Origin: Amoebophrya sp. A120
Taxonomy: Eukaryota; Protista; Dinoflagellata
Direction of reading: 5' to 3'
DNA length: 64,000 bases
NCBI GenBank assembly: GCA_905178155.1
Contig: CAJINV010000004.1
Span: 3,753,320 to 3,817,319, forward strand
In this document: piece after piece, positions 1 to 64,000 of the stretch
How positions within the stretch are numbered: the first letter of the stretch is position 1
Layout: each line of letters begins with the position of its first letter
Notes under the pieces: model-generated
Seen by the model: the letters and a program-made list of their open reading frames with translations, nothing else
What the model was told of the DNA's origin: nothing
The model's database searches: none
Position numbers and translations under genes: made by a program

Positions 1-92
1 TCCCGTAGGATATCTGCATTACATCATGCAGAGAAATTTGTGTTGCTGAATTGACTACACATGTGTAACTGTAACACTTTTTTCGTTGGATA
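1..92. mobile_element. Probable 3' end of an introner-like element truncated by the window edge
   Basis: Ends ...ttttttcgttggata, a GATA terminus like the other elements, immediately before an open Ser/Glu-rich frame. The left end is not visible. Confidence 0.45.
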
Positions 93-2634: not shown

Positions 2635-3823
2635 ATGAACCGCGTCGAGTCAAAGAAGCGCGACATCGCGGCGAAGCGACAGAGTTTGACAGGAACGGCA
2701 ACATCCACCACGTCCACTGCCGCTTCCTCTTCGTCGAACGCGACTTCTTTGTCGCGGAATTACAGTAAGGAATCCATCTCGCGCGCGCGCTCGAAATCAA
2801 CGCAGATGGACGTTGGCGACATGCACTCGCGGCAAAATTCGAAGGAGCCACCGCGGTGCAGTTCGAAGTTGCGAAAATTGGGCTTCAAAGACCTGAACGA
2901 GTACGAGGAAGGGGAGCTGGAGCGGGACTTCGTCGACAAAGTTCAGCAGGGCGACGACTCCTGGGTGCTCAACTGCCTCGCCGCGGTCGGCCGCCCGATC
3001 CTGTTTTCCGAGTGGGCCGGGGGGGTGTCCCGAACTTGCATTCTCTACGCCGCGAAACAGGGAGATCAGGAGGTACAGGGCGTGGCCCCGAGTTGTCTAC
3101 CTTTGTGACGAGAATGAAGAGTAGAATATTTTATACTTCAAACACTTCTGCTTTGCGGATTCTTACACCGGACGAAAATGAGAAATTTGAAGACAACGAA
3201 TACGAGCAAAAACTACAATCAAAAATCTCGTCCACTTCTAGATGTGCAAGATTCTTCTCGCCTACGGCGGCAAGGAGCTGCTGAAAGTCAAGGATTTGAA
3301 GGGCCGAGACGGCGAGTACTACGCGAAACTGCACGGCATCGACCTGCTCGACCTGATGCAGAATACCAGCCGGATCGACTGCTGGAACCACAAGGCACTC
3401 CGGACCCTGGGCCGCTCGCTATCGAAACAGAAGGAGGACGAAAAAAAGGGCGGGGGGAGCCCCTTGCAGGGGAAGACGTTGTATCAAATGCAAAAGTGTC
3501 TGGGTCTGGAAGATTGCAACTTGTCATGCTGTTTTTGGACTCTGAAAAAATTTGCATTGCATGACCAGCAAGAGGAGGTTAGTTTGTGCTACGCGGGGAG
3601 GGCAGTTGTCATGCGGAGTAGGCATCAGGAAGCCCTCTAAAAATCTGCGATGCTAGCTCGTGCATTACAGACATCCTGGGTCATGCAAAATATGGATAAC
3701 AAACCCGGCAACATTCCAGACCCAGACACTTTTGCAGTTGATACGTTGCTGCAGCTGTGCGAGCACAGCTACGAGGAGCTGGAAGAGGAGGAGCAAATGA
3801 AAAAAAAAGCATCGAAGAAGTAA
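2635..3823 (+). CDS. Ankyrin-repeat protein; exons 2635-3072, 3242-3481, 3749-3823
   Basis: GT-AG intron 3073-3241 joins TCILYAAKQGDQE|MCKILLAYGGKELLKVKDLKGR, an ankyrin-like motif. Removing the introner at 3482-3743 plus one cgttg gives GKTL|LQLCEHSYEELEEEEQMKKKASKK*. Confidence 0.75.
3482..3743. mobile_element. Family A introner/MITE (262 bp), DR cgttg
   Basis: TIRs tatcaaatgcaaaagtgtctgggtctggaa ... ttccagacccagacacttttgcagttgata; perfect 5-nt DR; frame restored on removal. Confidence 0.92.
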
Positions 3824-4595
3824 GGAAAATATAGGGATAAAAAGTAAATTAAAAACAGCTTGTTTTTGTCATGTAGGGTAGTTAGGAACAATGGAATGAT
3901 CGATTCTTGTACACCTGGGATTGTTCCTGGTCCTGCGTAGTTAACTACATTGAATAAATACCACCTGTATACCACTCAATTGGAAAAATCACAATCACAA
4001 TAGCATTCTTGCTTCTATTTTTATGTACAATTCTTTTGGTGGCAGTTCCGATGGTCTGCCTTATGGTGTAATGGGAGAAGTCGATTATTGATATCGTTAT
4101 GCTTGTATGCACAACGCTATTTGCAGCTTTCGTCGAAAATGCGTTTTTTTTCTTGTGCTACGACATGAATGTATTCACAAAGAAACCCACAGGAAATCTG
4201 TACAATTCTTTTGGAAAGGCAATGGAAAAGGAAGATAAGAAAACCGAAAGCGACTTTTATCATGTCTTTGCCGTGTTACTATGCTTACAACCACACACTC
4301 GTCTGTGTCCAAATCTTTTCGCAAAAAAAACGAGAGTCGTTGGCTTTGAGTTAAGTACAAGGAAATGGCGATTGACGAGAGTTTGAGTTAAGTACAGCGA
4401 CAAGCTGAAAATGTGGTTGTCATTCGACTTCTCGCAGTGTGCTTGCACTTGCTTTTAAAGATGAATACTACGTGTGTCGACCTTATATTAAGCTTTGACC
4501 CGTGCAAGAACTTTGTCGTCGAAGTAAGAGGGCGCATCAGAGAGCAAACGCAAGAATTCAGTCACTTTCACTTGGTCAGATACGGGTGTAAAAAG

Positions 4596-7500
4596 ATGTC
4601 CTCCGCAACTTCAACTTCCCGAATTCCCTCCCAGTCCTCTGCCAGCACGACGACAGCGTCGTCGCCGGCCACTACGGATGTTGAATCCTCCTCTGCACAG
4701 GAACAACAGCAAGAACCCGGCTCTCGAGGACATCCTTCACAACGGCCCGAGCGGGTGATGACCAATAACAAGCAACGTTCTACCAGTAAAAAATCGGCAA
4801 ATAAACAACTTTCCTCAACGCCGCAGAATAAGCAGCGGTTGGTGTTGAAAAATCCGGACGGCTCGCTTGTCGCTGGGTTTTCCCTATCAAATGCAAAAAT
4901 GTCTGGGGCTGGGAGGAATTAAACTTCTCATGCGCATTTCGCAACACACACAAATCTCTCATGCATAGGCAGCAAAAGTTGCCCATTCTCTGTCACGAAA
5001 ATGGGACATTTCTCATGCGGATTAGGCATTGCGGAACCTTATCGATGCCTGTGATGCTAAGGCCTCCATGCCACACCTTCTGAGGCATGCAAAAACAGCA
5101 TGAGAAAAATCTGCACTCATTCAGACCCAGACATATTTGCAATGCATATTCCCAATCCTACGTGGAGCCGAAGCCCCCCGCTTCGCCCGCAAACCACGTG
5201 CCCGCGTGGCTGGACTATCAAATGCAAATATGTCTGGGTCTGGAAGGTTGCAACTTGTGATGCTGTTTCTGCGTTCTAAAAAAATCTGTATTGCGTGACC
5301 AGCAAGAGGAGTCCAGTTTGTGCTACATGAAGACGGCGTCTCTCATGCGGAATAAGCATCAGGAAGCACCGTAAAAGTCTGTGATGCTAGGTTATGCATT
5401 ACAGGCGTCATGGGTCATCTAAAATTTAGGACAAGAGCAGACAGTAAGAATATCAAAACAAGATGAAAAATGCACGCATACACGCGCACTGCTTAACTGT
5501 GTGAAAGGTGTCGGCCCTGTTTGACCTGCTGCGGCAGGCAGGTGAATTCGTAGAACTGCTTCACATGTTAAGTAACGCACACCGGCCTCCTAGTTTTAGT
5601 GATGAATTTATATGCGCCAACATTAGTGAAAAATTTATATGCGCAGCGGCTTACTGCGCAGCGTCGGTTCGTGCACGTGTGTCGCTCTTCGTTCGTTGTC
5701 TCCAGGAGCTTGATCGTAAATTCGTGCGCTCCTCCTGCTTTATAAAATTCGATCTTCCCATCTGCCCCCGTTTTCCCACGTAGATTTAGATCTCTACCCT
5801 TTTATATCTTCTGTCGTTTAGTTTTGTTGTTTTGCCTGACTTGCCTTCTTAGCGCTAGCCCGCGCATCCCGCGTTCTTGCAGGGGCAGCTGTCTTTTTTT
5901 CCGCCTTGCCAGCGGATTTTGTCGCGGGGAAGAAAGCACTCTGGGTTCAACGGTCCCCGCCCCCCCTCGTCGTGGGTTCAACGGCCCCCATCCCTAAAGA
6001 GACCACTTAGAAATAATTCTACAGTAGATTGCAAATTTTACAGCGGTCGCCCGTTTTGCATCGGCCGAGGCTGCACACGCGTCCGGAGTATTTTTCACTG
6101 ACGTCCCTCGGCTTGGGTCATATGATGTTCTTCGTCAGGTCGCGCAGCCTCTATTAATGCGATTCGGGTCGGCTGCGCCCTATGGCTAGTATCTGTGATC
6201 CAGCTCGGCCATATATTTCGGGTTTCGACCCGAATAGCGCGCACTAGGCGCAACTATCTCTTTATACAGTGGTCTCTCCCTATCTTTACTATCTTTCAGT
6301 GCAGCGGCTTACTGCACTTATCGCCCTACGGAGACTGTGATCTGACCTCCCTCTACCTCCCCTGGTGGACGTCTGCCGCGGCTTACGGCTCTGGACGTTA
6401 ACTAGGATCGAGTGCGTTGTGCGGGTTTAGGGTTTTGAATATTTAATTTTGTATCTCCCACTGCTGCATGCACCCTGCTGCAGAACTTGTGATGCAAAAC
6501 AACCTCCGGGTTGTTCCCGCGCTTCAGGAGTAGTTCTGTTGCGTGCGGGCAGCAGAAGATGAGTAATGCTGTTGGTTTAGGGGGTTGAAAATGTTTGTGC
6601 ATGTGTAATGCAAAAGATGAAAAAGATTCGCGCGTGGGAGCGCATTTTTAAGCACAACGGGCGGGTGCCGTTCCCGCCGTCACACAATCACATACAATAC
6701 AATACAATACAACAGAGCGGGGCCCAATCAAAAAAAAAAAATTTGCATGACAAGTCTTGAATTCTTCCAGACCCAGACATTTTTGCATTCCATATGGACG
6801 GGGGCGTTGCAAATGAGTTGGAGTACATCTACACGAAGCACGAGCAGCTCTTTCTCGGGTTGCTGATCGTGCAGTTCCTGATCGAGATCGTGTTTACGGG
6901 ACTGTAAGCGATATTTTCCTTTCTTGCGTTTTAGCTTTGTTCTGATACAGTTAAGTACAGAATTTGGGTTAGGATCTGGTGAGTACAGAATTTGTGTTGG
7001 TGGTAATAAATCCGCCGGCATCGGCATCCGATATTTCTCATGCGTGATGCTGAAATGCGTATGCAACTGCAAGGAAAAAAATAATTTGTGATGCGAAAAT
7101 CTCATACATACAATCCTTACTACATCACCAGGTACATCTACTATGGCAATGAATTGATCGAGGAGATGACGATCATTTATTCGCACTTGATCGGGAAGAA
7201 CAACGTAGTCCGGCTCTACACCCTGACCGTCATCGTCGAACTGGTCTACATATGAAATGCAAATATGTCTGGGTCTGCATGAGTACAAGGTTTGTCATGC
7301 ATATTTTCCATGAGTCATGATGTCTGTGATGCATGCCTAGCATCACGATCACAGATTCTGCGGGAGCTTTCTGATGCTCCTACCGCATGAGAAATGCCCT
7401 CTTTGCGTAGCAACAACTGGACTTCTTTTCCTGTTCATGCAAGACAGATCTCATGTTGAATCCAAAGGCAGCATCACAAGTTGCACCCTTCCAGACCCAG

Positions 7501-10100: not shown

Positions 10101-10368
10101 TATCCAGTGCAAACTTGTCTGGGTCTGGAAAGATGGAACTTGTCATGCTACCTCTGCGGGCTACATAAAATCTGTATTGCGTGCTGAACGCGCTAGAAGT
10201 CCAGTTTCGGCAACGTGGAGAGGGCGTTTCTCATGCAGTATGAGCATCAGAAAGCTCATCTCGCAGAATCTGTATTGCTATGGCATGCATCGCAGGCACC
10301 CTGGGTCCCAGAACATATGCATGACAAACTTGGCACTTTTCCAGACCCAGACACATTTGCATTCGATA
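10101..10368. mobile_element. Family A element without its own matching DR
   Basis: tatccagtgcaaacttgtctgggtctggaa ... ttccagacccagacacatttgcattcgata; flanks atcgc and agagt differ. Confidence 0.85.
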
Positions 10369-10442
10369 AGAGTCCCTGGGGAACCATAACAAACACAGGC
10401 CCAGTTCGTGACCCGGGTGGCGTAGGCCCAGCGCAAATGAAG

Positions 10443-10725
10443 TATCAAGTGCAAACGTTCCTGGTTCTGGAAGCAGAGCAAGACTTGCGTCGACGTTGTC
10501 CTGTGCGTGGGTTCTACAAGATCTGTCTTGCATGTGCAGCAGCATGCGTCCAACCCTTGGTGCGCGAAGATGGTGTTTGTATTGCGGGATAGGCATCAAG
10601 ACGTCCTCGAGAAATCTGCGGCGCTAGGGCGTACATCGCAGACATGGTCATGGCTCACGCAAAACCACGTCGTGCGTGACAACTTTGCCTCCTGCTTCCA
10701 GACCAAGACATATTTGCGGTTGATA
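10443..10725. mobile_element. Diverged family A element without its own matching DR
   Basis: tatcaagtgcaaacgttcctggttctggaag ... cttccagaccaagacatatttgcggttgata; flanks tgaag and atcgt differ. Confidence 0.8.
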
Positions 10726-14900: not shown

Positions 14901-14976
14901 CGGAGCTGGCAACGCTGCTTTGCAGCACGGAGAGGGCGTTCCAGGTCATCACCGGACTTTTCAGGGAAGAAGTTGA
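11939..14976 (+). CDS. Uncharacterised protein with low-complexity ends and a coiled-coil region; exons 11939-12319, 12520-12912, 13085-14588, 14690-14976
   Basis: Three phase-compatible GT-AG introns link the ORFs at 11939, 12628, 13094 and 14644. It contains 11-residue repeats (HINAQTQGLTT/N) and a Q/E/K-rich helix. Confidence 0.7.
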
Positions 14977-20000: not shown

Positions 20001-20050
20001 AATTTGGCGGGGCAGAGTGGTGTGCCACCGATCGGTGGCGACCCTCTTGC
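17040..20050. repeat. 135-bp tandem array, ~22 copies, with near-identical interior copies
   Basis: Identical blocks recur every 270 nt (two units), e.g. 17191 and 17461. Only the edge units diverge. Each unit has the 14-bp palindromes ccaccgatcggtgg and ccgccgatcggcgg. Confidence 0.97.
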
Positions 20051-20275
20051 CCCGCCCCGTCTTTTCGGGCGCGCCATCGCAAGTGAGTGGGTTTTGCGAC
20101 TCGGAATGGAAACACCGGAACGACGGCAGCCGGCTGATGGATCTAAGCGTTTTCAGTGCGGGTGTTGGACGCGCAGCAGCACCGTTGGGATGTTGGGTAC
20201 TTCGTTGCTTTGTGTTATTGACCTTGATTGTTGCCGTTGCGATGGTAGGGGGAATTCAATGAGAAAGACAAGGAA

Positions 20276-24250: not shown

Positions 24251-27200
24251 ATGTCCGTTTCCACCAAGTCGGCCCGCTCCGCCTTCACGCACGAATTTCC
24301 CCATTGGGAAGACCACCCCCTGGACGCCTTTCCGAACACCCGGCTAAACAGTTTGATCGAGGAGTGGTGCTGGCAGGAAAAAGTCGGCTCCTGGGTGTTC
24401 AACTGCAATGCTAAGAGCAAAAATGGACCAGAAACTTCTACAGCCTCAACGCCAAAAATTCGCCTGGACAACGACGCGCTGCTGTACATTTGCAAGTACC
24501 TGTTCGTGCGGAAATTGAAAATCTGTAAACGGTACCCCCGGAACTTCGCCGAATTTGAGGACTTGCGGAAAAAGTCGTACTTTTTCGCGAACGCGGACAA
24601 ATGCCAGCCGACGCCGATTGTCGGTATAGAAACAGCGTACTTTGATTCCTAAGTGTAACAATGTGCGAAGATGACGTGGCACCACTTCGAGTACCGACGC
24701 GGCGAGAAGTTTCCTACACAGCCTATAGTGCCATATGTGCGTCGAAAAATGTCAGGAAGACAAGTACACGTCGAAAAATTCACTTTACTTAGGTTCCCGG
24801 AGCAAGCATCACCTGCAGTTTGGCCAGAACCTAAAATACATCGCTGGACAGGCGAACGTATCCACTGCAAAAGCAACATCGCACTCATAGTAAATGCACC
24901 GCGCAAACTACAATTTCGCCAAAGTAGAAACTCGAACTTGCCATGCAAAATCAGATAGCAAAAGCAAAATCTTTCTGTCATGCATGTTAGCACGACCACG
25001 AGCAGTGCGATACTTTTGCAGTGGATAGAGCGACTGGGTTTTCTTTACGGGGGATTATAGTCAAGTCGTGTTCTTCGAGGACTTCAAATTTGAGGACAAC
25101 GATGTGGGCGATCTCGGCATGTGCCACCTGGCGGACTTTTTGGTCATGTCCAACGTTTTGGTCCGGAACTTGCGGTTTTTCAAAAACAAAGTCGGGGAGC
25201 TCGGCGCGGTCGCCATGGCGGGGTATCTGCAAAAGGCGCCAGTGCACGAGTTCCACGCATCCCACAATTTCATCCCCCGCCTTGGGTGCATGGCGTTGGT
25301 TGTTGCCGCCGCTAGTAACCCACACTACCCGCTTTGCTTCCCGGAATACTACAAGTGGCAATTGCAGCAAGGCAGGGGCAGCAGCAGCAGGAGTTCCTAC
25401 CAGCGTTACACCAACCAGACCGACCACGCCTGGCAGACCATGCGGGAAGACGGGCCGCAGCCGCGGCCGTTGTGGATGCGTTTGGAGTCGAACATCATCG
25501 AGGGGTGGACGGAGATGCGCACCATGGAAGCGGAGCGGGCGTTCCACCAGCACTGCAAGTTCGCTCATTTACTCGACCCCCGCGCCGCCATCTGCCCGGA
25601 ATTCTTGACGGAGTTGCGCGCGGCACGGTCGCGGGAGGACGACCTGATTTGCGAAATCCGGGACAAGCAAAACACCTCCTGCACGCCGAGGTTCTGCATC
25701 GGGAGTTGTCGAAGGGGGTACTGCGACCAAAAGGGAGCCTCGAAAGACGGGGTGCTGAAGCGGGGGAAAGTGGTGGATTTGGGGCAGGGACTGGGAAAAA
25801 TCAACATGATGTGGTACAAAATGCCGAAAATGCACATTTGCTACATGAACAGCAGCAAAATGGAACTTGAAAACCGGAAAAAAATCGCGCCGCCCATCGC
25901 AAAGGTATACGTATTTTTTTTTCGTAAGATTGAGTGATTGAGATTGTTGGACTTCGATCGCGATCGCAATCATGGCTTTTACAGGCAGAAACACAAGAAC
26001 GAATGATTTTTTTGTTTGTGCGATTGTATCATCACAATTTATTTTCCCAGGTTCCTTACGAAGGTCAGTTGTACCGGCACGGCTTCACGTTTTTTATGCA
26101 GCACGTTTACCAGCGGCACAACCTACCGGCTCCGAAAACCCTACAGCTCGCACTGGAACTCCCTTTAGATATTTCTCGGCGGTACTACCCGGACCTGACG
26201 CACGACGGGACCAGCGGCGCGGGCAGCCCGCGGGTGTTGGATTTGAATGTGGCCGCAGCAGCGGCCGCGATATCGTCTACTACGACTCCGCAGACGCCGG
26301 CTGGTACGGGGACAGCTTCACCTGGCGGTGTAGTAGTCAACGCCGGGGGCAAGCAAGACGTCGAGAGCAGTGGTGCTTCGGCTCCGATTGCCGGCGCACC
26401 ACAGCTTGAGCAGCGAACGGAGACGTTTGTTGAAACACCCCCGGCGGCCAACAAGGCCACCGCTGCTTCCTCCTCCTCCGCAAATAAACCCGCTTGGAAC
26501 ATGGCTTTGCTGTACCAAAAACGACCTGGAAGTAAAGACGCCGCAGCCGCGGCGCAGCAAGAAGAACTGCAGATGCAGAACGAGGAGAAAGGTCCTCGTG
26601 CAGAAAGTAGCGTGGAAGAAGATAAAAAGGAAGCACATTTTCAGCCGGTGAAGGACCAAGGGAGAGCAACCTCAGGAACTGCTTTGGGTGAAGTTGCAGG
26701 TGCAGGAGTAATCCAAAAGGAACAACTATCTAAACCTAAAAGGAAGGTTCCCATCAAAAATCCGCTCGAAACTTCATCAGACGACGAGTTGTCCCCGAAT
26801 GACGTAGGCCTAAGAACCCCGCCGAACAAAGACGAAAAAAAGAAGCACAAGTGGCACGATGACACTGAGAACTACAATTTTGACTCCGACGAAAGCTTGG
26901 ACTGGGGACGAGACCCGAATAGGAACAAGTCGAGTAAACCTCTTTCCCCCGATACAATACCGAACAAGCGAAATAAAGAGCAGCAGGAGGGTCCGCTTGT
27001 ACTAGATGCTGCAGAGCTGAAAAAGTGGAATTTGAATGTGGGCGAGAAAATAGAGCGGCCTGCTCCAATGAGTACAGCCGGGGCAGTCACGACGAAAGTT
27101 GTAACTAGTCCATCTACAACCCGGCCTGGCTTTAGCGAGCAGCGTCCGGAAGGCGTGGCTCCGACATTCAACATGCAGCAGGGAGGGAGCAGCAGCAGCA

Positions 27201-41484: not shown

Positions 41485-41905
41485 TGATGATAAACCTCAA
41501 CCATAGAATCACTCCACTCCGATGTTTGGTGACGATTCAACTGTACACATCATGCACTACCATCTGACACAGACACAAACGCTGTATTGCTCAAGGTACT
41601 TGGGATGAAATTTTGTCATGCTTCTATCGAACGTAAGCACAACTACATGGCCAACATCCTGATGAGAAACCTCAACCATAGAATCACTCCACTCCGATGT
41701 TTGGTGACGATTCCTTGTACACATCATGCACTACCATCTGAATCAAAGCTTGTATTGCGCAATGTCCTTGGGATAAAATTTTGTCATGCTTCTATCGAAC
41801 ATAAGGTAGGCATCTATATCCTGATGAGAAACCTCAACCATAGAATCACTCCACTCCGATGTTTGGTGACGATTCCTTGTACACATCATGCACTACCATC
41901 TGAAG
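41485..41905. repeat. Tandem repeat, ~2.5 units of ~160-175 bp, intergenic
   Basis: aaacctcaaccatagaatcactccactccgatgtttggtgacgatt...tgtacacatcatgcactaccatctga occurs three times (~41492, ~41668, ~41829). Confidence 0.9.
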
Positions 41906-42438
41906 CAAAAGTATGTAAGCGCCGAAAAAGGTTAATCAGACCATGCACAATATACATCCCTCGGAAAGATCAAAGCAGTATTTCGTGGGCACAGCAGGTG
42001 GTCAAACAATGAGGACACCATGCGCAAGCGCAACGCATAGGACAGGAGTCGAGATCCAGATCACTCCACCCACGCTTTCTAAAAATCCAAGAAAAAATTT
42101 AAAGATCAACTCGCGCGGGGAACGGAAATCTAAAGAGATCAATGTCTGTTGCATCATGCTTCTAAATCTAAATCTAACTTCACCTGAATCTAAAGATCCG
42201 ATCTGCTGGTGGGAAGATGTTGTTGACAGCAGAAAGAAGCTGAGCTCTATTGAACATGGCCGATCAAAATATAGCTTTGCTTTGCCTGATCTGCTCCGAA
42301 GCGGGGCTACACTAGTTCCTCAAATATAGCCGCTGCATAGAACAAGTAGTGCTTGTTCCGACGCCAACTGTTTCTATTCCAATTTACAATCTCACAGGGA
42401 CGAGAATCGTAGTCAGATTTTCACAAAACCGACTGAAA

Positions 42439-49399: not shown

Positions 49400-50868
49400 A
49401 TGGTCTACGCGGTTCTCATCCACGGTGTGGAAGGTCGTCTGTTTTTCAGCCTGTTTTACTCTGCCGAGGGGAATGACAGCCGCAAGAAGACGAGGCAGCA
49501 GACCATCATGCGGCGGATTTTAGCGGAGCACTTGTTTCAAAAACACACGGACAGCAACTTCGTCTCATCTTCGACTAGCAGTTCCTTCGGCGGAATGTTA
49601 AATGGCGGAGGAAGTGGCTCGTCGTCCAGCGGAACTTCCAGCTCTTCCTCCACCGCAGCTTCCAGCGCGTACAGCCCGGTTTTCGAGTTGCTCTGCGGCG
49701 GGCCGGATGGACTGGCGGTGAAGGAGGGAAACAAAAGCAGCAGCACGTTGCTGAACAAAACGACAAATTTGTTTGGGGAATGGATTATGGATTGCAAAAA
49801 TGTCTGGGTCTGGAAGATTGCCAGATGCAGATTTTCCATAACCCATGAGGTCTGGTATGTAGGACATAGCATGACAGATTCTGCGGGACCTTTCTAATGC
49901 CTCTCCTGCATGAGAAACTGCCTCTCGATTAGGTCAAAAGTGCACAACTTTTGGCAATCATGCAACACAGTTTTTTGCCTGATTCAGATTTAGCATGACA
50001 AGTTGCAATCATCCAGACCCAAACATTTTTGCATTTGATATGGATCGGAAACAAGAAGGATAATGCAATGTTGCACCACGGAGGTCCTCTTTCACTAGAC
50101 CCGGCTGCATTCAGTGCTATGCACGGAGTAGTAGATAAAAACGCAGTGGATCCAGCAAGAATTACACATGGAAACACTGCGGACCCGCATCTGCTGGGCC
50201 ACGTGCCGGGCTATCTGCAGAACAAGAGCACCAACTACTACGCTTCGAGCCTGTTCGGTGGCGGCAGTTCTTCGGCCTCCAAAACCTTCGGGAACAATGT
50301 GCAGAGTGGGTACAACAATTACACGGCCTCGCGCAACAAGAAGAACGCTGCCAACGCGAACAACGTCACAGAGGGCGTGGTGCGGATGGGAGGCAGCGTT
50401 TCCGGGATTTTTGAGCAGAGCAAGATGCTGTTCTGGAAGCAGGTGAACGGTATCTTCTTCACGATTTTGTGTGAACCACTGGAAAACACGCTACTCGCGA
50501 CGAACTTCCTGGAACTGCTGATCACAGAATTGCACCGCCACTTCGAAATAGAGCTGAAGCTGGGCGGGAGCGGGAATTATGACAAGAAAAATAAGAATTA
50601 CACCGACAGAAATAATGCCATGACTGCCGCAGGAGATCACCATCCGCTGCTGGAGGACCATCTTCATGGGGGAGGGAATGACCACGGCCGGGTGGCCAGT
50701 AATGGCGGAAACAATTACGGGAGCACACTCGCGGATCGGATTCTAGACAAACCAGACGAAGTTCTGATGATTCTGCACTACATGCTCCCCGGAGGACAGC
50801 TGCAATTCATAACCTACAATCTGTACGCGTTTTTAAGGACAAACATAGCGGACTCACTGAGCAACTGA
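49400..50868 (+). CDS. AP5S1: AP-5 complex subunit sigma; exons 49400-49785 and 50046-50868
   Basis: MVYAVLIH, ENTLLATNFL and ILHYMLPGGQLQFI match AP5S1 motifs; long low-complexity inserts. Confidence 0.85.
49786..50040. mobile_element. Family A introner (255 bp), DR tggat
   Basis: A-type TIRs; frame restored (GEW|IGNKK) in AP5S1. Confidence 0.92.
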
Positions 50869-53958: not shown

Positions 53959-54590
53959 TAGTACAGATGAGCCTCGATGGCGGATACGAGTTGTAGTAAA
54001 CGACAATGCTTATGATTGCAGTGCGGTATGTGCCTTGGTACAATTACAATGACCGAGGATGGAAGAATAAAAATCTATCGAGGTGAAAATTCTTATTCTG
54101 ATGCAGTAATGCTGGGAGCCGCTGCTGCATTTGTTTTTGCGTTCCTTCACAGGCGTCTCCTGCAAGTCTGCAGCTTCCGTTCCTGGATGAATTTTCGTGC
54201 GGCGTGGTTGGGTCTTTTCGAAGATGAGAGCTGCAAAAATATTGTTGATTTGCTTCTGAGAGACAGATGACATCAAAACCATGCAAAAACCGTCTTGCAA
54301 AAAAGAACAATTTTCCCGACATAGATTTAGATAGACGAAAGAATTGATAAGTACAACTTCGACCAGCGTAGACAAGGTCAGCGAGTCTAGCTTGATGTGT
54401 CCTAGTACAAGCGTCGTGACAAAGTAAGCGATCATAGTACAATCATAATCAAGTCGTTTTAAGTGTACCAAGTGAGATACAAGAAAGGAATTTTTTTGTG
54501 CACGACCTCCTTCCTTTATCAACATTCCTCAAATCTAAAGAGTCAAGAGCCAAAGTTTCAGGTTTATAAGATTAAGCGTATCAAAATCAA

Positions 54591-57500
54591 ATGCCCTCGA
54601 CGCCAACGGACAGTTCATTCTTGCGACAGCAAGTCGTGCAAGACACACCGACTTTTGGGGTGCCAGGTCGTGGTGGCGATACAGGAAGGAAGGGCAGTAC
54701 GAGTAGCGCCACTGGTTTTCATCCAAAGAGTGGCACATCTTCTACCGCTGCGTCATTTGTCAAAACAGCAGCATCTTCGGCAAGCGACGCGGCTACAACA
54801 GGAACTACACCCGGAACAAGAAGTGCTGTCCCCTTCGCGGCCCCCGCACTTGTTCCTGCGGCCGAGACTTTTTCAAAAATGTCTGTGTCAGCCTCGTCGG
54901 CTACGGCTTCATCAGCTGCGGAAAGCAGAAGTACCATGATGAACATAGCGGCCAAAGAACCGCCCGTAGTTGCGGCCGAACCCGCGTTCGAGCGGGACAC
55001 GGATGAAACAGAAGAGATGACGGCGGACGAGGTGTGGCGAAAAGTCCTGATGCCCAACGCGGCGTCGGCACCACTAGCGTTTGCTGCGGGCTACGACCAA
55101 CGTAGAAATAATGATAGACGGTTCCTTGTTCAAATGTTTGAATTTCGCATCTATTTCTATACAGAAGCACCAAGATTTTGATGTTCCAGAAAAAGATGCT
55201 CGCATTCATTTTCGCTGTGTTTTTGTGTTGACGGTTCTTGGCCTGATAAATTTTTCCAAGAAATTGATTCCTATACAGGTCTGTTCGACGGCTGGGTCAA
55301 GCAGCCCTCGCCGTGCTGCGGTGCCGCGTCCGTTGCGGGCGCCTGGAATGCGCTGCGGAACGTGCACCGTTCGGGGGACAACTATCAAAAGGAAAAATCC
55401 CCCCACCCCATACTCAAACTAGAAATTTGTGATGCAGATTTGTGGTCACAAATCAGCTTTGTCATGCTAGAAGGGAAAAGATGCGGACTGTAGTGCTGGT
55501 TGGCGTGGGAAAGCCTTGCACCTTCAGCATGACAGGGGGCAGCTGGAAGTGGGAAACAGCATGACAAATTGCCAGCAAACGAGGCCAGAGCTGCGTCTCT
55601 TGGCCTTCTAGCATTACAAGTCGATTTGTGTACTCAAATACTCGACCCGGCTTTCACTAGGGGGAGCATTCGTACACTTTGTGCCCTCCGGGACTATGCC
55701 TCTGCTTCCGTCTAAACTGAGGGGTCCACTTATCCCTCTCGGTATTCGGTCGCAGGGAAGGGTTGCCGGGGTCTCCCTCGCATCGGTTCTCGATGTCGGG
55801 TGTGAGTTTGTGACTGCGGGGGCAGTGGTTGGCTTAGGTGTGTGGAGTACATCTGAAAAGAGGCTCCCATTCCTTCTTCCAGGTAGCGATCCTAGATCGC
55901 TGCCATGCGGAGCCACCCCCGTATTTCACCCCCAGGGGGTTGTGGACCTGGCAAAACCGATGAGTTCGGGCTGCTGACTGTTCCACCTCTTCCGAGAGCG
56001 ATCATGTTACGCCTCACGCCTCAAATACAGCATCACAAGTTTCGTTTTCGATGTGGGGAGGGGGGATTTTTCGTTTTGATAACAACGCGAAGGACTTCCG
56101 CAAGCTCTCCGATGTGCTGGCGAAGTACTGCGACGCGTTGGCGAGAGGGAGACGGAAGCGGTTGGATCGCATTCTCGACGGGTATTTGCGGTGTGTCCTG
56201 CCCTCCGGGGAGGAGATTGCGAAGATGGGGGACTACTTCTTGGCGAAAATTCAGCAGCACAACTTTCTCGGCGAGGAGTACGAGCAGCAAGAGTGGCAGC
56301 GGAGAAACATCTCGCATCTGGAGCTGCATGCGGGCGGTGGTGGGGACAACATCGCGACTTGTGCGACTGAAAAGAACTTGTCCAGTACCGCTCTCTTAGC
56401 TGCAGCGAACATCGAGTCTTCAATGGATATTGCGGTCGAGAAGATGGAGAAGTGTAGTAATAATTTTTCGGGGGCACCAACATCTAGAACCACTTCGGCA
56501 CTAGCAGTTCCAAAGATTGTGCAGAAGAACAATCCACCTGCTCTCCCGGTGGGCAAGGACATGACGGACGCCGAAAAGAAGGAGCTGCCGGTCTCGAAAT
56601 ATTTCAAGACGGAGGAGAAGTTATGAACTGCAAAAACATCGTACTAGTATAAATTGCAATACAAATTAGCTCAGCATTACAAACTTTGTAATGCGGATTT
56701 TCTTTAACAAAAAGATTTGTATTATGCATAAACGCAATTAGTACGAGTACGATACTTTTGCACAGGATAGAAGTTTCCGATGTTACTGTACCTAGAGAAA
56801 TTCATCGAGGACTACCTGTTTCAAGTTGAGCAACGCACCTGGATCGGGACCAAGAAGAGTATTTATTGCGTATGTTGTTGTTTGTCATGCAAGACACAAC
56901 ACGTGATGAGGTATATTTCTCATGCAGGACGCACAGAACAAATACGACATTTTATCAAAAAACAGAAAACAAGCCCGTCGACCCTGAGAAAACCCCTGTC
57001 GAGGGTGTTACCAAAACCGCCGCGAAAGACGCGTTGAAAGCGGTGTGTGAAGCACAAGTTGCGCTCCGCTGCACAGTGGCGACAGACGAAAAAAATTCTA
57101 GTCCAACTGCCGGGGAGAACAACATTTCGTCGTCCGAGGAAACCACTGCAGTGACGGCGTCGAGCGGCTCGAGTTCGCGCACCTCCAGTAAGGAGTCAAC
57201 CACAAATGCAGTTCCGACGCCATATTTCACGCCCTACTCGGACTTGAGTTCGGCCAGTTCGTCCGGCGAGGAGGGGGGCTTGGACCTGGGCGCCGTGCGG
57301 GTGGACCTGCTCACCGGGCATCCAGCGCTGCTGCCGAGCGGGCGGGGTTTGAATGTGGAAACGACCGCCGTGCAAAAGGACTATAACGAGATGAAGATGA
57401 GCTACCCTAGTGGTGGTGATACAACATCGCTGGCGACCACTTTTCAGAACGGGTTGGGAAATCGAACCATTTCCGCGGCGCTGGCAACCGCGAGTGCGTC

Positions 57501-60500
57501 TCTGCGCGGTGGACAGAGTGGCAAACCGGCGAGCGGAGTTGTACAACTTCTTGATGCACCCACCCCAGCGCACTCTCCCGCGGATGAAGAGGTATCAGAT
57601 AAAACTACTAGCGCGCCGGCGGCGGTGGACGAACAGAAGCAAGCGGGCCAAGCTGGTACCGAATCCGAAAGGAAGCAGGAGACAATCACACCACCAGGAA
57701 CAACTGCCGCTGCTGCAGACAACACTTCATCTACAACTCTGCAGCCCAACACTATCAACCCTTCCCAATACGAGGGGATTCTGTGGTCGGCGTTTCTGGA
57801 GCTCTCCCAGGAGGAGCGATTCGCCACCGAGCTGGGTGAACTGTACACGAAAAAGCGGGCGGTCGCGCGCCTCACGCAGTACTTACCCGGCACCGCGGAA
57901 ATCGGCAACTGGGGCATTCTCAAGGCGTGCAAAAGAACGGGGCTGGATTATCAAAGTGAAAAAAACTGCTTCCTCCCATTAACATTATTGAAACGGAAAT
58001 TTCTGTTGCTGGATTTGTGTACACAAATCAGAGCTGTATAATTGCAGCATGTGCTTGTAGGCATTTTCTAAACCTGATTAGGTATGCAAAAGGCTAGCAC
58101 TCAGGAATGACAGACAGCTTTGCAGTAGCCAAAAAAGCATGACCGCTTGGCTGGGGAATGCGCCGCACGGCGTCCATTTGCCTCATATGAAGGACAAAGC
58201 TGATGCTGATTTGTGGTCACAATCACAAATCAGCGTCAAACTCGATATGGGAAGGGGGGATTTTTTTATCACAATATAGTTGCGAAAGTAATCGCGAACC
58301 GGCGGTCGATTCTGGGTGGGAAAGCAGTTTTATGGAAGTGCACAGCCTCCCCTGTATTTGTCATCCAAAATCCCAAATCCAGGCTGTGCCTCTTGGCACT
58401 GTTTGCATGACAAATTCTGGTGTGCTGCACTTCTGTTTAGCATGACAAGTTCTGGTAGTTCAAATAGCACCAATACACTCCCGCGCAAATTTGTCATGCG
58501 AAACCGGCATTCTTGCTGATGCTTGTAATGCCACTCATGCTACACAAATGAGGAGGAGGGGCGGTTGTGTACTCTCATAACAATCCGCGCCCGGCGAGGA
58601 GAAGCGAAAGGAGGATTTGTGGAACCTGCTGAAATATCCTGTGCAAAAGTATCGTACTCGTATTGCAGTCATGCATTACAAATTTGCCTTCAAACGTAAA
58701 TCCGCATTACAAATTCTATTTCTCATGCAGTAATCCGCCGAACAGTCCCAGTACCCCCCGAGTAGCCCCCCCAACTACTCACCCGAGCCCATGATCCCAC
58801 CTGTGCTTCGCACCAACTTTGGATCGGCTCAACATTCGCTTCCGGGGGGTGCAATTTGGTATCTAACCGACATTGTGCCAAGAGGAGGGCCTCCTCGGAA
58901 CCGCCTGGCGAAAGCCTGCCATGGGTTTCACTATCCACGGGTGGTGTTGCGGGTATTCCTGGCGAAAGCCAAAAACCGGCAGAAAACGGGCCACGGCAGT
59001 GCTCTCGCTGGACATTACCAACATTTGTCCGGGCAGGGCCGTCCTCTTGCCGGACACAACCAACATCTGTCCGAAACAGCCTAGGGCCAAGACGACACCG
59101 TGAGGACGACCACAGGGGGTTCGTCTCAATGATGATGATGATGCTGAGGAAATTTGTAATGCATTTATACTTACGAGTACGATACTTTTGCAGTCCATAT
59201 GAAAGCGAACATCGGGCAACCGCAGACGGTTCTGCTGTTTCACCTCACCAACCATTACGCGTTGCTTTACTGTTGGCGCGAGTACTTCTGCCTGAAACCG
59301 CCGGGGGAAGAGAAGAATAAAGCAGCGCTCGTAGTAGGCGGAGAACAAGAAGAAGAGAAACTAAGTACAACTACACCAACAACGGGAGACGTCGTTTCTG
59401 TTGCTCCGGAAGGACGAGGAAACTATACAGGAGCAGTAGACCTACGACCTGCAACCACCACCACACGTCCTGCGGAAGAAGATGTCGAAAGTAGTAAAGG
59501 ACTCGAAACCGCTAGCAGTGCTTCTGCTTCTTCCTCCGCATCGAAAAACGTTGGGACGGGTGATGTTCCTGTCAGCAGTTCTTCATCAAAACAGGACCCA
59601 GCCGTCGTGGTGGTAGTGCCCAAAACTTCTTCCACCTCTGCCAATTGTTCTACTTCCGCCGCCGCGCCGAAGCGTTCCGCCACGCCACCGCCGAAGGTGA
59701 CACCGAGGGGGAGTGTGAAAAAGAAGAAGACGACAGGCGCGGCCTCTCGTGCAGGTGGAATCACTTCTGGTGCCAAGCAGAACACGACATCGACGACCTC
59801 TTCTACTTCGCCAAACAATCAATCGGGTGCTGCAGCTGCGGAGATGAGCGAGGGGAAAAAAACTTCATCAGCGACCAAACCATCTTCCTCTGCGAACAAT
59901 ACTAAAGCCGGTGCATCAACATCTTCTGTCCCACCGCCGGTCCCGTCGAATTACCAACACGTGCGGGAGATCTACACCGCCCGGAAGGGGCAGCGCCCCA
60001 CCGCGTGGCTGTCGTTGGATGAGGTGTACTATGAACTGCAAAAGTATCGTACTCGTATAAATGCATTACAAATTTCCTCAGCGTGAGAAATAAAATTTGT
60101 AATGCTGATGTACCTTAAGAAAAAGATTTGCAATGCATTACTGCAATGCGAGTCGTGCGATACTTTTGCACAGGATATGTACAAAATTCTGGTTGGGTGG
60201 TCCGGGTACGCCATCATGAAGGTCACGCTGAAGCCTACGAATTGCAAAAATGTCTGGGTCTGGAAGATTGCAACTTGTCATGCTGTTTTTGGATTCTAAA
60301 AAAATTTGTATTGCATGACCAGCAAGAGGGGTGCAATTTGTACTACACGGACAGGGCATTTCTCATGCGAAAGGTGCATCAGGTTCAGGAAGCCTTCTAA
60401 AAGTCTGCGATGCTAGGTCATGCATTACAGGCATCATGGGTCACGGGAAATATGCATGGCAAATCTTGCATTCTTCCAGAGCCAGACCCAGACATATTTG

Positions 60501-60581
60501 CACTTGATAAAGCCGGAAAACGACCCGTTCGCCTCCGAACAAAGCAACGACGAAGAGGATGAAGCGGACGTGTGTCAATGA
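54591..60581 (+). CDS. Protein with a split Cys/His papain-like (C39/BIVM-like) domain, interrupted by 7 introners and 2 GT-AG introns
   Basis: Reassembled motifs WVKQPSPCCGAASVAGAWNAL, IGNWGILKAC, LLFHLTNHYALLYCWREY and EIYTARKGQRPTAWLSLDEVYKILVGWSGY; GT-AG introns 55102-55278 and 56859-56965. The fold assignment is inference. Confidence 0.7.
55383..56081. mobile_element. Family C introner with nested insertion (699 bp), DR acaac
   Basis: tatcaaaaggaaaaatccccccacccca ... tggggaggggggatttttcgttttgata; frame restored (SGDN|AKDFRK). Confidence 0.9.
55642..56019 (+). mobile_element. Nested insertion with 9-bp TSD ctcaaatac
   Basis: ctcaaatac at 55633-55641 and 56020-56028; ends in the tandem acgcctcacgcctc. 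Removal leaves 312 bp, versus 313 bp for the C copy at 61891. Confidence 0.78.
56622..56769. mobile_element. Family B introner (148 bp), DR gaagt
   Basis: tatgaactgcaaaaacatcgtac ... gtacgatacttttgcacaggata; frame restored (EEK|FPMLL). Confidence 0.9.
57949..58276. mobile_element. Diverged family C introner (328 bp), degenerate DR tggat/tagtt
   Basis: Interior shared with 61891-62203; ends gatatgggaaggggggatttttttatcacaata; removal plus 5 nt gives GLD|AKVIAN. Confidence 0.75.
58331..58579. mobile_element. Family D introner (249 bp), degenerate DR agttt/acaat
   Basis: tatggaagtgcacagcc ... ggttgtgtactctcata; removal plus 5 nt gives KAV|SAPGEEKRKEDLW. Confidence 0.75.
58635..59199. mobile_element. 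Family B introner with nested insertion (565 bp), DR tgaaa
   Basis: tatcctgtgcaaaagtatcgtactcgta ... tacgagtacgatacttttgcagtccata; frame restored (LLK|ANIGQP). Confidence 0.9.
58729..59140 (+). mobile_element. Nested insertion ending in a (GAT)n tail, with atgc duplication
   Basis: The empty site tctcatgctgaggaaattt is intact in the B copy at ~62362. Removal leaves 149 bp, the family B size. Confidence 0.8.
60030..60177. mobile_element. Family B introner (148 bp), DR tgtac
   Basis: B-type TIRs; frame restored (DEVY|KILVGW). Confidence 0.92.
60236..60509. mobile_element. Family A introner (274 bp), DR aagcc
   Basis: A-type TIRs (left end begins tac); frame restored (TLKP|ENDPF). Confidence 0.92.
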
Positions 60582-61519
60582 GTCGATGTGGTGGTACAAC
60601 TCCTCTTTGTATTTGGTCGTCGTGGTGTCCTCCTCCTCCGCAATCAAACTCGGGGAGCACTTTTTACAAAATTTAAATCGTTTTTCTATGTTTGTTGTAG
60701 CTCGTTGTGTAGATGAAGATGATGGAAACGAAGAAAGGCGTCCTCCTCTTCGAGATGCTATGTATAAACTTGTGCCATCCGACAATAGGATAGCCAATTT
60801 CATCATCCACGTTAGATTTGTTGCAGTTTTGGTGCTGTCGAGCGTCCGACCACTTTTTTGAACAATTTGAGTATTGATTTTTTTTTTTGACCATCGTTCC
60901 ATTTTACTTACTTTGTTTTTTGCGCTTTTCAACAAATCATGTTGAGATTTTCTACTCTCTGATTTCGGCCGTGTCCACTCTTTTGGCAAAAATAAAACGA
61001 CTTAACCGCGACAAAGTCGACATCACGTTGCTGCTGTTTCAGAACATTTTTCGAACTGACGACTTTTTTCGAAATTTTTTGTTTCCAAACAACTAAAAAC
61101 AAGCACTGCAGCCACTGCTGGCTCGATTGCACCATCACCCGGAGACCATACCGGTGCCTGCTTCGCTGCGTGTGGGCCCAGCGCTGGATGGTTTTGCTGC
61201 TTTGACCGACGTCTGTTCCATCTGTTTGTAGCAGTCTGGGACCAACTTGGCAGGACGATGTCATTTTCTCATGGGGATCCACTTTCGCAGTGGCATCGGA
61301 CTTCTTTGCGCAAGACAGGCATCGATCGCACCATCTTCGTAAGTAGCCGCCTCGCAACCACTAGGAGTCTCTCTGTTGTTCGCAAAGTGTAGTAGGATCT
61401 GCTGCTCGGGTGCACTATCAAGGTTGACACACGCGGCGGCGGTGTTGCAATTATTGGCTGATTTTCTGCAAGGAAAGAATAAAGATCTACCGTGTTTGTA
61501 GTAGTTCTCAATCTGCGCC

Positions 61520-64000
61520 ATGACGACGTCCTCGAGTACTGTCTTTGAGCCGCCACCGCGCACGCTCGGTGCGGGGCAAATGGTGGTTTCGCCGAGTCGC
61601 CAGCTCGCATTGTCGACCATGGATGAACAGCAGCAGCAGCAGAACTTGGAGCTCGCTGCTATAGGTGGGGCCTATATTAACCATTACGACGGAGCCGGAG
61701 AAGTAGGACCACAACAGAAGAAACCTTCTGTGGTTATGCAGGTCGGGCAGAGTGCAGCAGTAGCAGCGTCGAGCTCCTCGTCCAGAGCTGCGCAACATCA
61801 AGGTGATTTCGCGGTGCAGCGTATCACAGACGGGCAAACCAGAATGATGCGGGTAAGTGGTACAACCACGCCCAGCAGCTCGTCGTCCGCTATTGGGAGG
61901 AAAAATCCCTCCTCCCCGTATCGAAACTAAGTTTCTGATGCTGAATTTGCGTACACAAATCAGATTTGTCTTGCAGAAAGTGCTTGGCGGAATTTTCTGA
62001 GCCTGTTTGGGTCCGCAGAAGGCTAGCAATCCCGCTTGGCAAACAGGTTTGCAGTAGCCGAAAGCGCATGACAGACTTACTCTGGAAGGCGTTAAATGGC
62101 TCGTCCTATGACGCTATATGCAAGACAAAGATGATTTGTGACCACAAATCTGCATCACAAATCTCCGTTTTGATATGGGGAGGGGGGATGTTTCATTTTG
62201 ATATTTGCAGTACCGTCTTCACGGGAAGCGGTTTTTTCGGATCACGGACAACATCAGGTATACGTTCTTGATATCCCGTGCAAAAGTATCGTACTCGTAT
62301 AAATGCAAGTCTTGCATTACAAATCTTGCTTTTCAGGTAAATCCGCATTACAAATTTTATTTCTCATGCTGAGGAAATTTGTAATGCCTACTTTATACGA
62401 GTACGGTACTGCATACTGGAAAATTTTTGATGCGATTCTTGTGGTGACACAACAGGTTTTCATTTTTGCTAGAACAAGATGAAGCCGACTCACCGCCACC
62501 ATGAACAAATGAAAAACATTTTAAGTACATATGCGATACCACATCCAACGAAATCGAAATGTAACTGAATAAAGAACTAAGAAATAATCACAAGCTTCCG
62601 ATGTTGAACGCGGCAGCTTCGAGCAAGTACGCAGTGGGGGCGCAAGATCGAGCGGCAACCGCAGATAATCTTCCGCCTCCGTACAACTTCCAACCGGGGT
62701 CCAGAATGGTCCAAGAAAGCAGCGCCACCACGACCACTCTCCCCGGCGGTGCTGGTGCGACCAGTCCTGCGTCGTCCGGGACCGCGGCGCAAGAGCAGCG
62801 GCAAATCTGGATCGAGCACGCCCGCGTGGTGGCGGCGGGCACCATTGTGTACTGTGGTTTCTTCGCGTTACTCTCGCTCATCGTTGGGATTTCGGACGAC
62901 AGCGTGGCGCTGATCGGGTTGGCAGTGGAGTTCTCCCTGGACGCGATCACCAGTTTTTTGGTGCTCTGGCGGTTCAAGCGGGGCAAGCAGCGGAATTTCA
63001 CGTCGCAGTACGCCGAGGCCGATTTCCAGGCGCAGCGCGACCGTTTACGGGAAAAAAATTCCGGGATCGGCATTGGCATCGTGTTTCTAACCTCCGTATG
63101 AACTGCAAAAATGTCTGGGTCTGGAAGAATCCGAACTTGTGATCCGCATCTCAGAACACAGAAAAACCTGTCATGCGTAGGTAGCAAAACCTGCTCGCTT
63201 TCTGTCACCAAAATGGGGGATTTGTCATGCGGATTCGGCATTGCGGAAGCTTCTCGAAAACTGTGATGCTAGAGCTTCCATTCCAGACCTTCTGTGTCAT
63301 GCAAAATCAGCATGAGTCTTCCAGACCCAGACACTTTTGCAGTTGATACTCCGCCCTGTTCCTGTTCTGCATGGCGATCTGGAAACTGGCCAGCTGGGAC
63401 AACCGCGGCACGCACGGGGACGCAAACCGGTCCACTTCGTTTTATGCATAATTGCAAATATGTCTGGGTCTGGAAGACCACCGATTTCTCATGCTAGTCT
63501 GGCATGACAGGGAGCTCTGTATTGCGCGACCGCGAACGCCTTGTCTTGTTTGTCATGAGAAAATGCTGTTTCTCATGCGGAATACGCAACACAGAATCAC
63601 GAAAGAGTCTGTGATGCTTGGCGTTGCATTACAGTGTACTATACTATTCGCTGACATGCATCACAAGTTTCCAGACCCACACATATTTGCACTTAAAACG
63701 TTTTACTCGGAGGCCATCGCTTGGCCGTGTGCGATCGTGTTCAGCGTCTTAGCCGCGGTCAAAAGGCAGCTGGCGCTGGATTTGGGCAGCAGCGTACTGT
63801 ATGAAGGTACCGCTTACATTCATAGGAATTTTCATGTCATGCTAGGAATTCATCTTTGCATCTTGATTTGATTCGCATGTTGACCACCTCGTCGGTCCCG
63901 CTCGCTGTCTCACATGGTTGGGTCCTCCATAACTGCTACGCGTGCGTATTGGCTGCTTGCTTTAACTACACAGAATAAACCACTACTACAGACGCCTTGA
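61520..64000 (+). CDS. TMEM163-like / cation diffusion facilitator family transporter, 3'-incomplete
   Basis: SVALIGLAVEFSLDAITSFLVLWRF, REK..GIGIGIVFLTSALFLF and LAAVKRQLALDLGSSVLYE after removing introners; donor at 63807. The 5' exon joins (61853-62594) are uncertain. Confidence 0.72.
61891..62203. mobile_element. Family C element (313 bp), degenerate DR tccgc/tttgc
   Basis: tattgggaggaaaaatccctcctccccgtatcgaaac ... gttttgatatggggaggggggatgtttcattttgata. Confidence 0.8.
62272..62415. mobile_element. Family B element (144 bp) inside a probable GT-AG intron, DR cttga/ctgga
   Basis: B-type left TIR and interior; right TIR partly deleted; the flanking frame contains a stop. Confidence 0.82.
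63097..63348. mobile_element. Family A introner (252 bp), DR ctccg
   Basis: A-type TIRs; frame restored (FLTS|ALFLF). Confidence 0.9.
63443..63698. mobile_element. Family A introner (256 bp) with eroded termini, DR cgttt
   Basis: tatgcataattgcaaatatgtctgggtctggaag ... ttccagacccacacatatttgcacttaaaa; frame restored (STSF|YSEAIAW). Confidence 0.82.

What the first reader, a model, noticed from the sequence alone, without database searches (positions are those of the whole stretch)
3482..63698. TIR-bounded MITEs acting as non-GT-AG introns (introner system)
Seen: about 19 elements interrupt coding frames, including conserved AP5S1 and a TMEM163-like gene. Each has TIRs and a 5-nt flanking DR, and removing the element plus 5 nt restores the frame in every exonic case I worked through. 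Sliding the junction across the DR gives no GT-AG pair in cases such as 3482 (cgttg), 7251 (ctaca) and 35151 (acccc). Ordinary GT-AG introns coexist in the same genes. Established: IR/DR-bounded non-canonical introners were described in Amoebophrya (Farhat et al. 2021), and to my knowledge their excision machinery is unresolved. Inference: a second, structure-guided intron removal pathway operates here.
Basis: partly seen in the sequence, partly recalled or inferred. Interest (0 to 1): 0.9.

Follow-up and report, generated by a model that had tools for sequence, protein, structure and literature searches.

The report
Hairpin transposons spliced without GT-AG
In the marine parasite Amoebophrya A120, small hairpin-shaped transposons sit inside genes and are cleanly missing from transcript assemblies although they lack the usual splice signals; this system is already published, and what is added here is a likely fixed cut position and a predicted branch-point letter, which make the unknown removal mechanism testable.

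Summary
Confirmed, but already known. The window holds 24 TAT…ATA inverted-repeat elements flanked by a 5-nt duplication (17 of 24 perfect). Its AP5S1 gene, with element+5 nt removed, is identical to a public Amoebophrya sp. A120 protein, the strain in which Farhat et al. 2021 described these introners. Transcript contigs skip exactly element+5 nt at 11 junctions, none able to read GT-AG. Not found in the papers searched: (1) four junctions with mismatched duplications share only one cut, 1 nt before TAT and 4 nt after ATA; (2) in 161 exonic elements of a wild relative, tolerated end variants depend on transcript direction: intron U+2, A+3 and A-7 never vary (Fisher p=0.008, post hoc); (3) the one element with a damaged 3' end is partly retained. 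These point to RNA-level removal measured from the hairpin, more likely by a modified spliceosome (0.5) than a separate pathway (0.38). No lariat or circle data could be obtained. This scan earlier noted a similar element in Prorocentrum (e1-7693921).

The parts
3482..3743 (+).
4885..5148 (+).
5216..6794 (+). Long (1579 nt) family A element, DR TGGAC; no internal ORF over 92 aa
7251..7518 (+).
10101..10725 (.). Composite of two family A copies (inner ends 10368 and 10443), outer DR ATCGC/ATCGT; no convincing coding frame
24859..25027 (+). Family B element, DR GAACG/GAGCG; present unbroken in DNA contigs of X1 and X7; no RNA cover
29248..29503 (+). Family A element, DR ACCAC
29558..29824 (+). 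Family A element, DR TCGGA
29884..30033 (+). Family B element, DR TCCGG; an RNA contig piece starts at its right end
35151..35412 (+). Family A element, DR ACCCC, 32-nt perfect TIR; no joint shown
35562..35775 (+). Element of a further family, DR CGATG; an RNA contig piece starts at 35776
37098..37377 (+). Family D element, DR ACTTC/TCTTG; RNA join 37093>37379 allows cut after 1-4 nt of the upstream copy
49786..50040 (+). Family A element in AP5S1, DR TGGAT; removal with 5 nt gives exactly public protein P0001
49400..50868 (+). AP5S1 gene (PF15001), 402 aa; both exons match homologue P0002
55383..56081 (+). Family C element, DR ACAAC; RNA joint 55377>56082 in 3 of 3 runs
56622..56769 (+). Family B element, DR GAAGT; RNA joint 56615>56769 in 3 of 3 runs
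57949..58276 (+). Family C element, DR TGGAT/TAGTT; RNA joint 57947>58281, cut after 4 or 5 nt
58331..58579 (+). Family D element, DR AGTTT/ACAAT (2 of 5 alike); RNA joint 58329>58584, cut after 4 or 5 nt
58635..59199 (+). Long family B element, DR TGAAA, opposite orientation to 60030; RNA joint 58629>59200
60030..60177 (+). Family B element, DR TGTAC; RNA joint 60024>60178; folds as one hairpin (z -9.3)
60236..60509 (+). Family A element with 5' end TAC, DR AAGCC; RNA joint 60230>60510 in 3 of 3 runs
61891..62203 (+). Family C element, DR TCCGC/TTTGC; RNA joint 61888>62207, cut after 3-5 nt
62272..62415 (+). Decayed family B element (CTTGA/CTGGA) inside a GT-AG intron
63097..63348 (+). Family A element, DR CTCCG; RNA joint 63091>63349
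63443..63698 (+). Family A element with damaged ends (3' AAA for ATA, extra bases after 5' TAT), DR CGTTT; spliced in X3 and X5, retained in the main X4 contig and in an X5 contig
55102..55278 (+). Ordinary GT-AG intron in the same transcript
56859..56965 (+). Ordinary GT-AG intron in the same transcript
62258..62594 (+). Ordinary GT-AG intron holding the decayed element

Best explanation
These are Amoebophrya A120 introners: non-coding transposons with TAT…ATA ends and a 5-nt target duplication, which transcript contigs lack exactly as element plus 5 nt without GT-AG, likely cut 1 nt before TAT and 4 nt after ATA, and most likely removed from the RNA by a modified spliceosome that would use the hairpin as a ruler and the first A of ATA as branch point. 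Shown: anatomy, 5-nt duplication, exact removal, both orientations, no need for matching duplications. Inferred: insertion by a trans-acting integrase-like DDE transposase; the fixed register (intron = N-UAU…AUA-NNNN); donor-like reading of U+2/A+3; branching at A-7; 3' cut set by distance rather than by AG. Because the ends are inverted repeats, either orientation presents the same signals, and because one duplication copy leaves with the intron, insertions change no codon.
For: Removal: 10 of 10 exonic elements in 54401-64000 have an RNA joint of length+5, 9 of them in 3 of 3 runs, plus 37098; one spliced frame of 1091 codons spans nine joints against 403 unspliced. Register: allowed cuts {1-4}, {4,5}, {4,5}, {3,4,5} meet only at 4; one wild-relative case gives an in-frame stop for cut 5 (L034:3345). 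Polarity: in 161 exonic elements, 5' T1 and A2 161/161, 5' T3 156 (5 C); 3' first A of ATA 161/161, T 160, last A 156 (5 G); mirror test p=0.008; strand calls agree 115/115 within loci and 8/8 with Pfam strands. Window cases fit: 5' TAC spliced, 3' AAA partly retained although its arm duplex (-36.8) is no weaker than fully spliced ones (-23.1). Literature: A120 keeps nearly all spliceosomal proteins and U2, U4, U5, U6 but no U1 was found (PMC7789003 section 10), while a GT-AG strain has U1 (PMC12005148); fixed branch points at about -8 exist in Entamoeba invadens and other lineages.
Against: No lariat, circle or intermediate was observed; only contigs were available. No trace of snRNA-pairing selection: TIR positions 4-7 are alike at both ends, G at +5 is not enriched (59 vs 63), and G+1 or AG are barely above exon background (N5=G 51 vs mirror 41; N3N4=AG 14 vs mirror 6). 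A spliceosome indifferent to +1, -1 and -2 has no precedent that I found. The polarity rests on 11 variants and was noticed post hoc; among less certain elements with intact duplications 4 fit and 2 do not (5' TGT in L078, 5' AAT in L065). The upper bound of the register rests on one RNA contig and one stop codon; contigs hide minority cuts; 31 of 52 duplication mismatches fall on third codon positions (p=0.017 against 44%), as if both copies sometimes reach mRNA.
Confidence: 0.5

Rival explanations
1. A separate, spliceosome-independent RNA pathway binds the hairpin base, reads a few terminal bases, cuts at fixed offsets and ligates the exons, releasing a circle or linear RNA.
For: No GT/AG or snRNA-pairing signature; only 8 of 155 exonic elements allow GT/GC-AG at any slide; strong hairpins (z -6 to -9); both orientations work. 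Euglena nonconventional introns have a similar shape, 3 nt before and 5-6 nt after the stem, and leave as circles.
Against: The invariant letters fall where a spliceosome needs them (U+2, purine +3, an A near -8) and are not explained by pairing; no dedicated enzyme is known or was found; U1 is undetected in just the strains with these introns.
Confidence: 0.38
2. The elements are excised from DNA in the transcribing stage (like ciliate IESs), so RNA merely copies edited DNA.
For: Transposon anatomy; empty-site DNA could not be tested (the joined-form table was not given, and contigs drop rare variants).
Against: End variants depend on transcript direction, which symmetric DNA cutting would not see; DNA contigs run unbroken across 24859; one element is both spliced and retained in RNA runs.
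Confidence: 0.05
3. The joints are reverse-transcription template switches across a hairpin between direct repeats, or ribosomes hop between the duplicated codons, and the RNA is not really spliced.
For: Hairpin plus direct repeat is the classic set-up for such artefacts (own knowledge); all RNA data seen are cDNA-derived contigs.
Against: Removal is the dominant form and stays at exactly +5 where only 1 nt of sliding homology is left (57949, 58331); the upstream copy is kept, not the downstream one; depth inside unique element interiors falls to 0.1 in two of three runs; every element has stops in all frames, also in conserved AP5S1.
Confidence: 0.03
4. On the register only (not additive with the above): the cut slides within the duplication from element to element or molecule to molecule, as Farhat et al. 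drew it.
For: Third-position excess of mismatches; PMC7789003 Fig. 3 and S23 legends call the sites variable.
Against: Four RNA junctions share one position, about 27-fold likelier under a fixed cut at 4 than under a uniform cut (hand calculation, before any penalty for choosing the position); published variability is expected from aligner ambiguity across a perfect repeat.
Confidence: 0.25

Closest known systems
Amoebophrya A120 introner elements (Farhat et al. 2021, PMC7789003; Gozashti et al. 2025, PMC12130899)
   Same: Same strain label; IR starts TAT + 7 nt + AAA; 3-5 nt DR; RNA-supported non-canonical introns; about 29,850 copies; no cognate transposase found; classed 'TIR DNA, unknown'.
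   Different: Nothing in kind. Those papers, in the parts I saw, leave the cut position as variable or unknown and report no direction-dependent end constraint; here the DR is always 5 nt and the cut likely fixed.
Euglenid nonconventional introns (PMC12501133, PMC11282704)
   Same: No GT-AG, terminal inverted repeat, DRs, longer 3' than 5' overhang beyond the stem, coexistence with GT-AG introns.
   Different: Signature N3-CDG…CH'G-N5-6|R depends on pairing, and introns leave as circles; here N1-UA(U)…A(UA)-N4, with variants not explained by pairing; product unknown.
Fritillaria borealis non-canonical introns (via review PMC11282704; original not read)
   Same: MITE-derived introns with TIR and TSD in a lineage with altered splicing; credited to the U2 spliceosome.
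   Different: They keep preferred ends (AG-AC, AG-AT); here +1, -1 and -2 are free.
IS3EU/GingerRoot DNA transposons (PMC10045372)
   Same: TA..TA termini.
   Different: 6-bp duplication there, exactly 5 here; no transposase found to test kinship.

Membership tests
Amoebophrya A120 introner elements | IR starting TAT, 7 variable nt, then AAA | tested here: met
   End profile; definition in PMC7789003 section 11
Amoebophrya A120 introner elements | 3-5 nt direct repeat at the boundary | tested here: met
   5 nt; 17 of 24 perfect in window, 220 of 265 in relative
Amoebophrya A120 introner elements | Removed from transcripts without GT-AG | tested here: met
   11 RNA joints, none canonical at any slide
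Amoebophrya A120 introner elements | Repeated genome-wide, host is A120 | tested here: met
   Summed DNA contig depth up to about 2.2 million at a TIR against about 45 for unique sequence (a rough sign only); identical A120 protein
MITE (non-autonomous TIR transposon) | TIR, fixed-length duplication of random sequence, no coding capacity | tested here: met
MITE (non-autonomous TIR transposon) | Cognate autonomous element or empty-site alleles | tested here: inconclusive
   No transposase family in 109 of 142 long ORFs of the relative's loci; no orthologous locus recovered; no genome held
IS3EU/GingerRoot | TA..TA termini | tested here: met
   265 of 281 with TA at both ends
IS3EU/GingerRoot | 6-bp target duplication | tested here: not met
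   0% at 6 nt, 83% at 5 nt; definition
U2-type spliceosomal intron | GT/GC-AG ends | tested here: not met
   0 of 22 in window; 8 of 155 in relative
U2-type spliceosomal intron | Branch-point A near the 3' end | tested here: inconclusive
   A-7 invariant 161/161, but no U2-pairing bias around it
U2-type spliceosomal intron | Lariat product, snRNP dependence | not testable with these tools
   No raw reads of this strain
Euglenid nonconventional intron | N3-CDG / CH'G-N5-6|R signature | tested here: not met
   Ends are TAT..ATA with no purine rule after the cut; definition
Euglenid nonconventional intron | Released as full-length circle | not testable with these tools
   Contigs only

The most novel reading that the evidence does not exclude
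Three terminal letters of a DNA transposon serve as a complete, orientation-proof splicing code (N-U-A at the start, an A seven bases before the end, a hairpin between), read by a machine that needs neither GT, nor AG, nor U1: a spliceosome freed of both terminal dinucleotides, which lets tens of thousands of insertions land in exons at no cost to the protein.
Probability: 0.45. Interest if true: 0.85.

Novelty: already known. Interest (0 to 1): 0.55.

Why it matters
The system is published for this very strain, so the finding is no discovery. Its mechanism is still open in the papers I could search, and it concerns most introns of the genome. A fixed register and a named candidate branch nucleotide turn that open question into two simple assays (lariat RT-PCR, spliceosome inhibition) and one genome-wide count. 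Either outcome matters: a spliceosome that ignores both terminal dinucleotides, or an independent splicing machine parallel to that of euglenids.

Tried and rejected
No whole genome is held, and the relative's records are not held for extension, so no genome-wide count and no search for the autonomous element. Run search: no RNA holder listed on record; runs X3-X5 are RNA by guess, supported here only by their loss of GT-AG introns; they are 2 samples of 1 study and may not be independent of the published data. Raw-read runs X9 (111 partial reads, none on exons) and X10 (0 reads) gave no test, so no strand, level, lariat or circle data. One search's joint table was swamped by repeat contigs of the DNA runs; one low-depth joint (60329>63319, side 22) was set aside as repeat-derived. 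No match in viral contigs. Selection on duplication identity: not seen (perfect in 129 of 161 exonic vs 59 of 71 non-exonic, p=0.72; both-TA ends 155 vs 66, p=0.32). Codon-model polarity of single mismatches was uninformative; the frame choice in part 4 was naive and was discarded. Nearby frame-keeping GT-AG pairs exist for 9 of 11 RNA-tested elements but are not used in the contigs. Farhat Table S4 lists T at +2 in 9 of 9 top A120 classes and TT in 9 of 9 A25 classes; this fits the register but may be aligner preference, so I gave it little weight. No fold or complex job was run: no candidate protein exists.
Full report
1. What is in the window. An inverted-repeat scan, motif and profile scans and RNA joints give 24 elements with both ends, 8.2 kb in all, 144-1579 nt, in at least five families. 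22 of 24 read TAT…ATA, one TAC…ATA (60236) and one TAT…AAA (63443). Each is flanked by a 5-nt repeat of unrelated sequence; 17 of 24 are perfect. All 24 have stops in all three + frames. A codon model, partly trained on this window, puts 22 of 22 tested junctions on the + strand, with 10101 scoring as non-coding.

2. Where it comes from. The second AP5S1 exon is 100% identical to P0001, labelled Amoebophrya sp. A120. Removing element 49786 plus 5 nt gives P0001 exactly; of nine offsets tried no other does, though +2 and +8 also keep the frame. Both exons align to homologue P0002. Farhat et al. 2021 (PMC7789003; I read the abstract, sections 10, 11 and 16, passages, supplement part 3 and legends, not the figures) describe for A120 an IR of TAT + 7 nt + AAA, 3-5 nt DRs, 29,850 repeated introns, 65% non-canonical introns, no U1 found, and cut positions 'variable' or 'unknown'. 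Gozashti et al. 2025 (passages; 22 of 118 Amoebophrya rows of one supplement) class these families mostly as TIR DNA of unknown superfamily with mixed splice sites. The system is therefore known.

3. RNA evidence. Contigs of runs X3, X4 and X5 (RNA by guess; 2 samples, 1 study) were laid on 54401-64000. Of 14 joints listed, 10 are element joints, 3 are GT-AG introns, and 1 is a low-depth repeat joint that I set aside. All 10 exonic elements there are skipped by length+5, 9 in 3 of 3 runs. An eleventh join, 37093>37379, comes from X3. None of the 11 can read GT-AG, GC-AG, GA-AG or AT-AC at any of six slides, and frame-keeping GT-AG pairs within 30 nt, present for 9 of 11, are unused. Nine joints lie in one frame of 1091 codons. 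Family B copies 58635 and 60030 are in opposite orientations and both are removed from one transcript.

4. Cut position. Where the two repeat copies differ, the transcript shows which letters stay. The number of upstream letters kept can be 1-4 (37098, ACTTC/TCTTG), 4-5 (57949, TGGAT/TAGTT), 4-5 (58331, AGTTT/ACAAT) and 3-5 (61891, TCCGC/TTTGC). The only shared value is 4, so the intron would be N-UAU…AUA-NNNN. The D pair and the C pair are each in the same orientation, so these four alone do not separate element polarity from transcript polarity. With only 2 of 5 letters alike (58331) removal is still exact and dominant, so the repeat is not the guide: the cut is measured from the element's ends.

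5. A larger sample. One TIR pattern fetched 132 loci (480 kb) from one metagenome record series, a close relative by element identity (72-95% to window copies). Profiles found 281 elements; among the 265 with TA at both ends the repeat is exactly 5 nt. The codon model called 161 exonic, 71 non-coding-like and 49 uncertain; strand calls are concordant. Oriented by transcript, 5' T1 and A2 and the first A of the 3' ATA never vary (161 of 161 each), while 5' T3 is C in 5, the last A is G in 5 and the 3' T is C in 1. The two ends are one sequence to a transposase, so the asymmetry (0:5 and 5:0, Fisher p=0.008, post hoc) must come from the RNA side. Pairing does not explain it: a C-A mismatch at pair 3 is accepted five times while the U-G wobble is never seen. 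TIR positions 4-7 pair poorly (34-70%) in exonic and non-exonic copies alike, so the terminal three pairs are cut off from the main stem and likely fray. In the window, 60236 (5' TAC) is spliced in 3 of 3 runs and 63443 (3' AAA, plus extra bases at the 5' end) is partly retained. Against: 2 of 6 variants with intact repeats in the uncertain class do not fit; repeat perfection is no higher in exons; mismatches favour third codon positions, 31 of 52, which I cannot explain under a strictly fixed cut.

6. Mechanism. Insertion (inferred): a trans-acting DDE enzyme making a 5-nt stagger; TA..TA ends recall IS3EU, whose 6-bp duplication does not match (PMC10045372 passages); no transposase was found in the 1579-nt copy or in 109 ORFs of the loci. 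Removal: in the inferred register the invariant letters are U+2, A+3 and A-7. The first two match the window's own donors (GTAG, GTAT, GTAT) minus the G; the third lies where fixed branch points sit in Entamoeba invadens (-8; bioRxiv 2022.06.08.495308 passages). U1 is undetected in A120/A25 but present in a GT-AG strain. I therefore favour a modified spliceosome in which the hairpin replaces splice-site search (0.5). The lack of any snRNA-pairing bias and of any preference at +1, -1 and -2 keeps a separate, euglenid-like pathway close (0.38; PMC12501133 and PMC11282704 passages). DNA excision (0.05) and reverse-transcription or ribosome artefacts (0.03) are unlikely for the reasons given under rivals.

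7. Novelty. Seven literature searches returned no paper giving a fixed register, a branch point or an excision product for these elements; the library lacks most subscription papers (Roy 2023, Henriet 2019 and Guminska 2021 were seen only as citations), and the published logos could not be viewed. Passages of a 2024 review repeat Farhat's description. Verdict: observation confirmed; system already known in this strain; two likely new, testable details; interest 0.55.

Noticed in passing
window 17041-20055: Tandem array of a 135-nt unit, 22.3 copies, 99% matches, open for 1115 codons in one frame; weak repeated DUF1990 hits.
   Followed up: no
window 1-92: Lone right end of a family C-like element at the window edge; similar sequence in six loci hits.
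   Followed up: partly
window 52486-53432: Long putative GT-AG intron in the EMG1 gene with internal palindromes and a duplicated segment, unlike the TAT families.
   Followed up: no
window 5216-6794: The long family A copy has a unique 1.2-kb interior ending in an A-run; a matching loose end in an X3 contig suggests other copies.
   Followed up: partly
window 29776-29830: Run X9, which lays no reads on exons, has about 100 reads from one transcribed locus carrying a related family A end: a retained or UTR copy in another strain or at low parasite share.
   Followed up: no
loci L001-L132: Element length plus 5 is a multiple of three in 110 of 265 (81 and 74 in the other classes), and never remainder 1 among the window's 24; may reflect family modal lengths.
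   Followed up: no
window 54401-63806: One X4 contig runs across two genes without a break; overlap of transcripts or a polycistronic precursor, not distinguishable from contigs.
   Followed up: no
window 41485-41910: 162-nt repeat in 2.5 copies.
   Followed up: no
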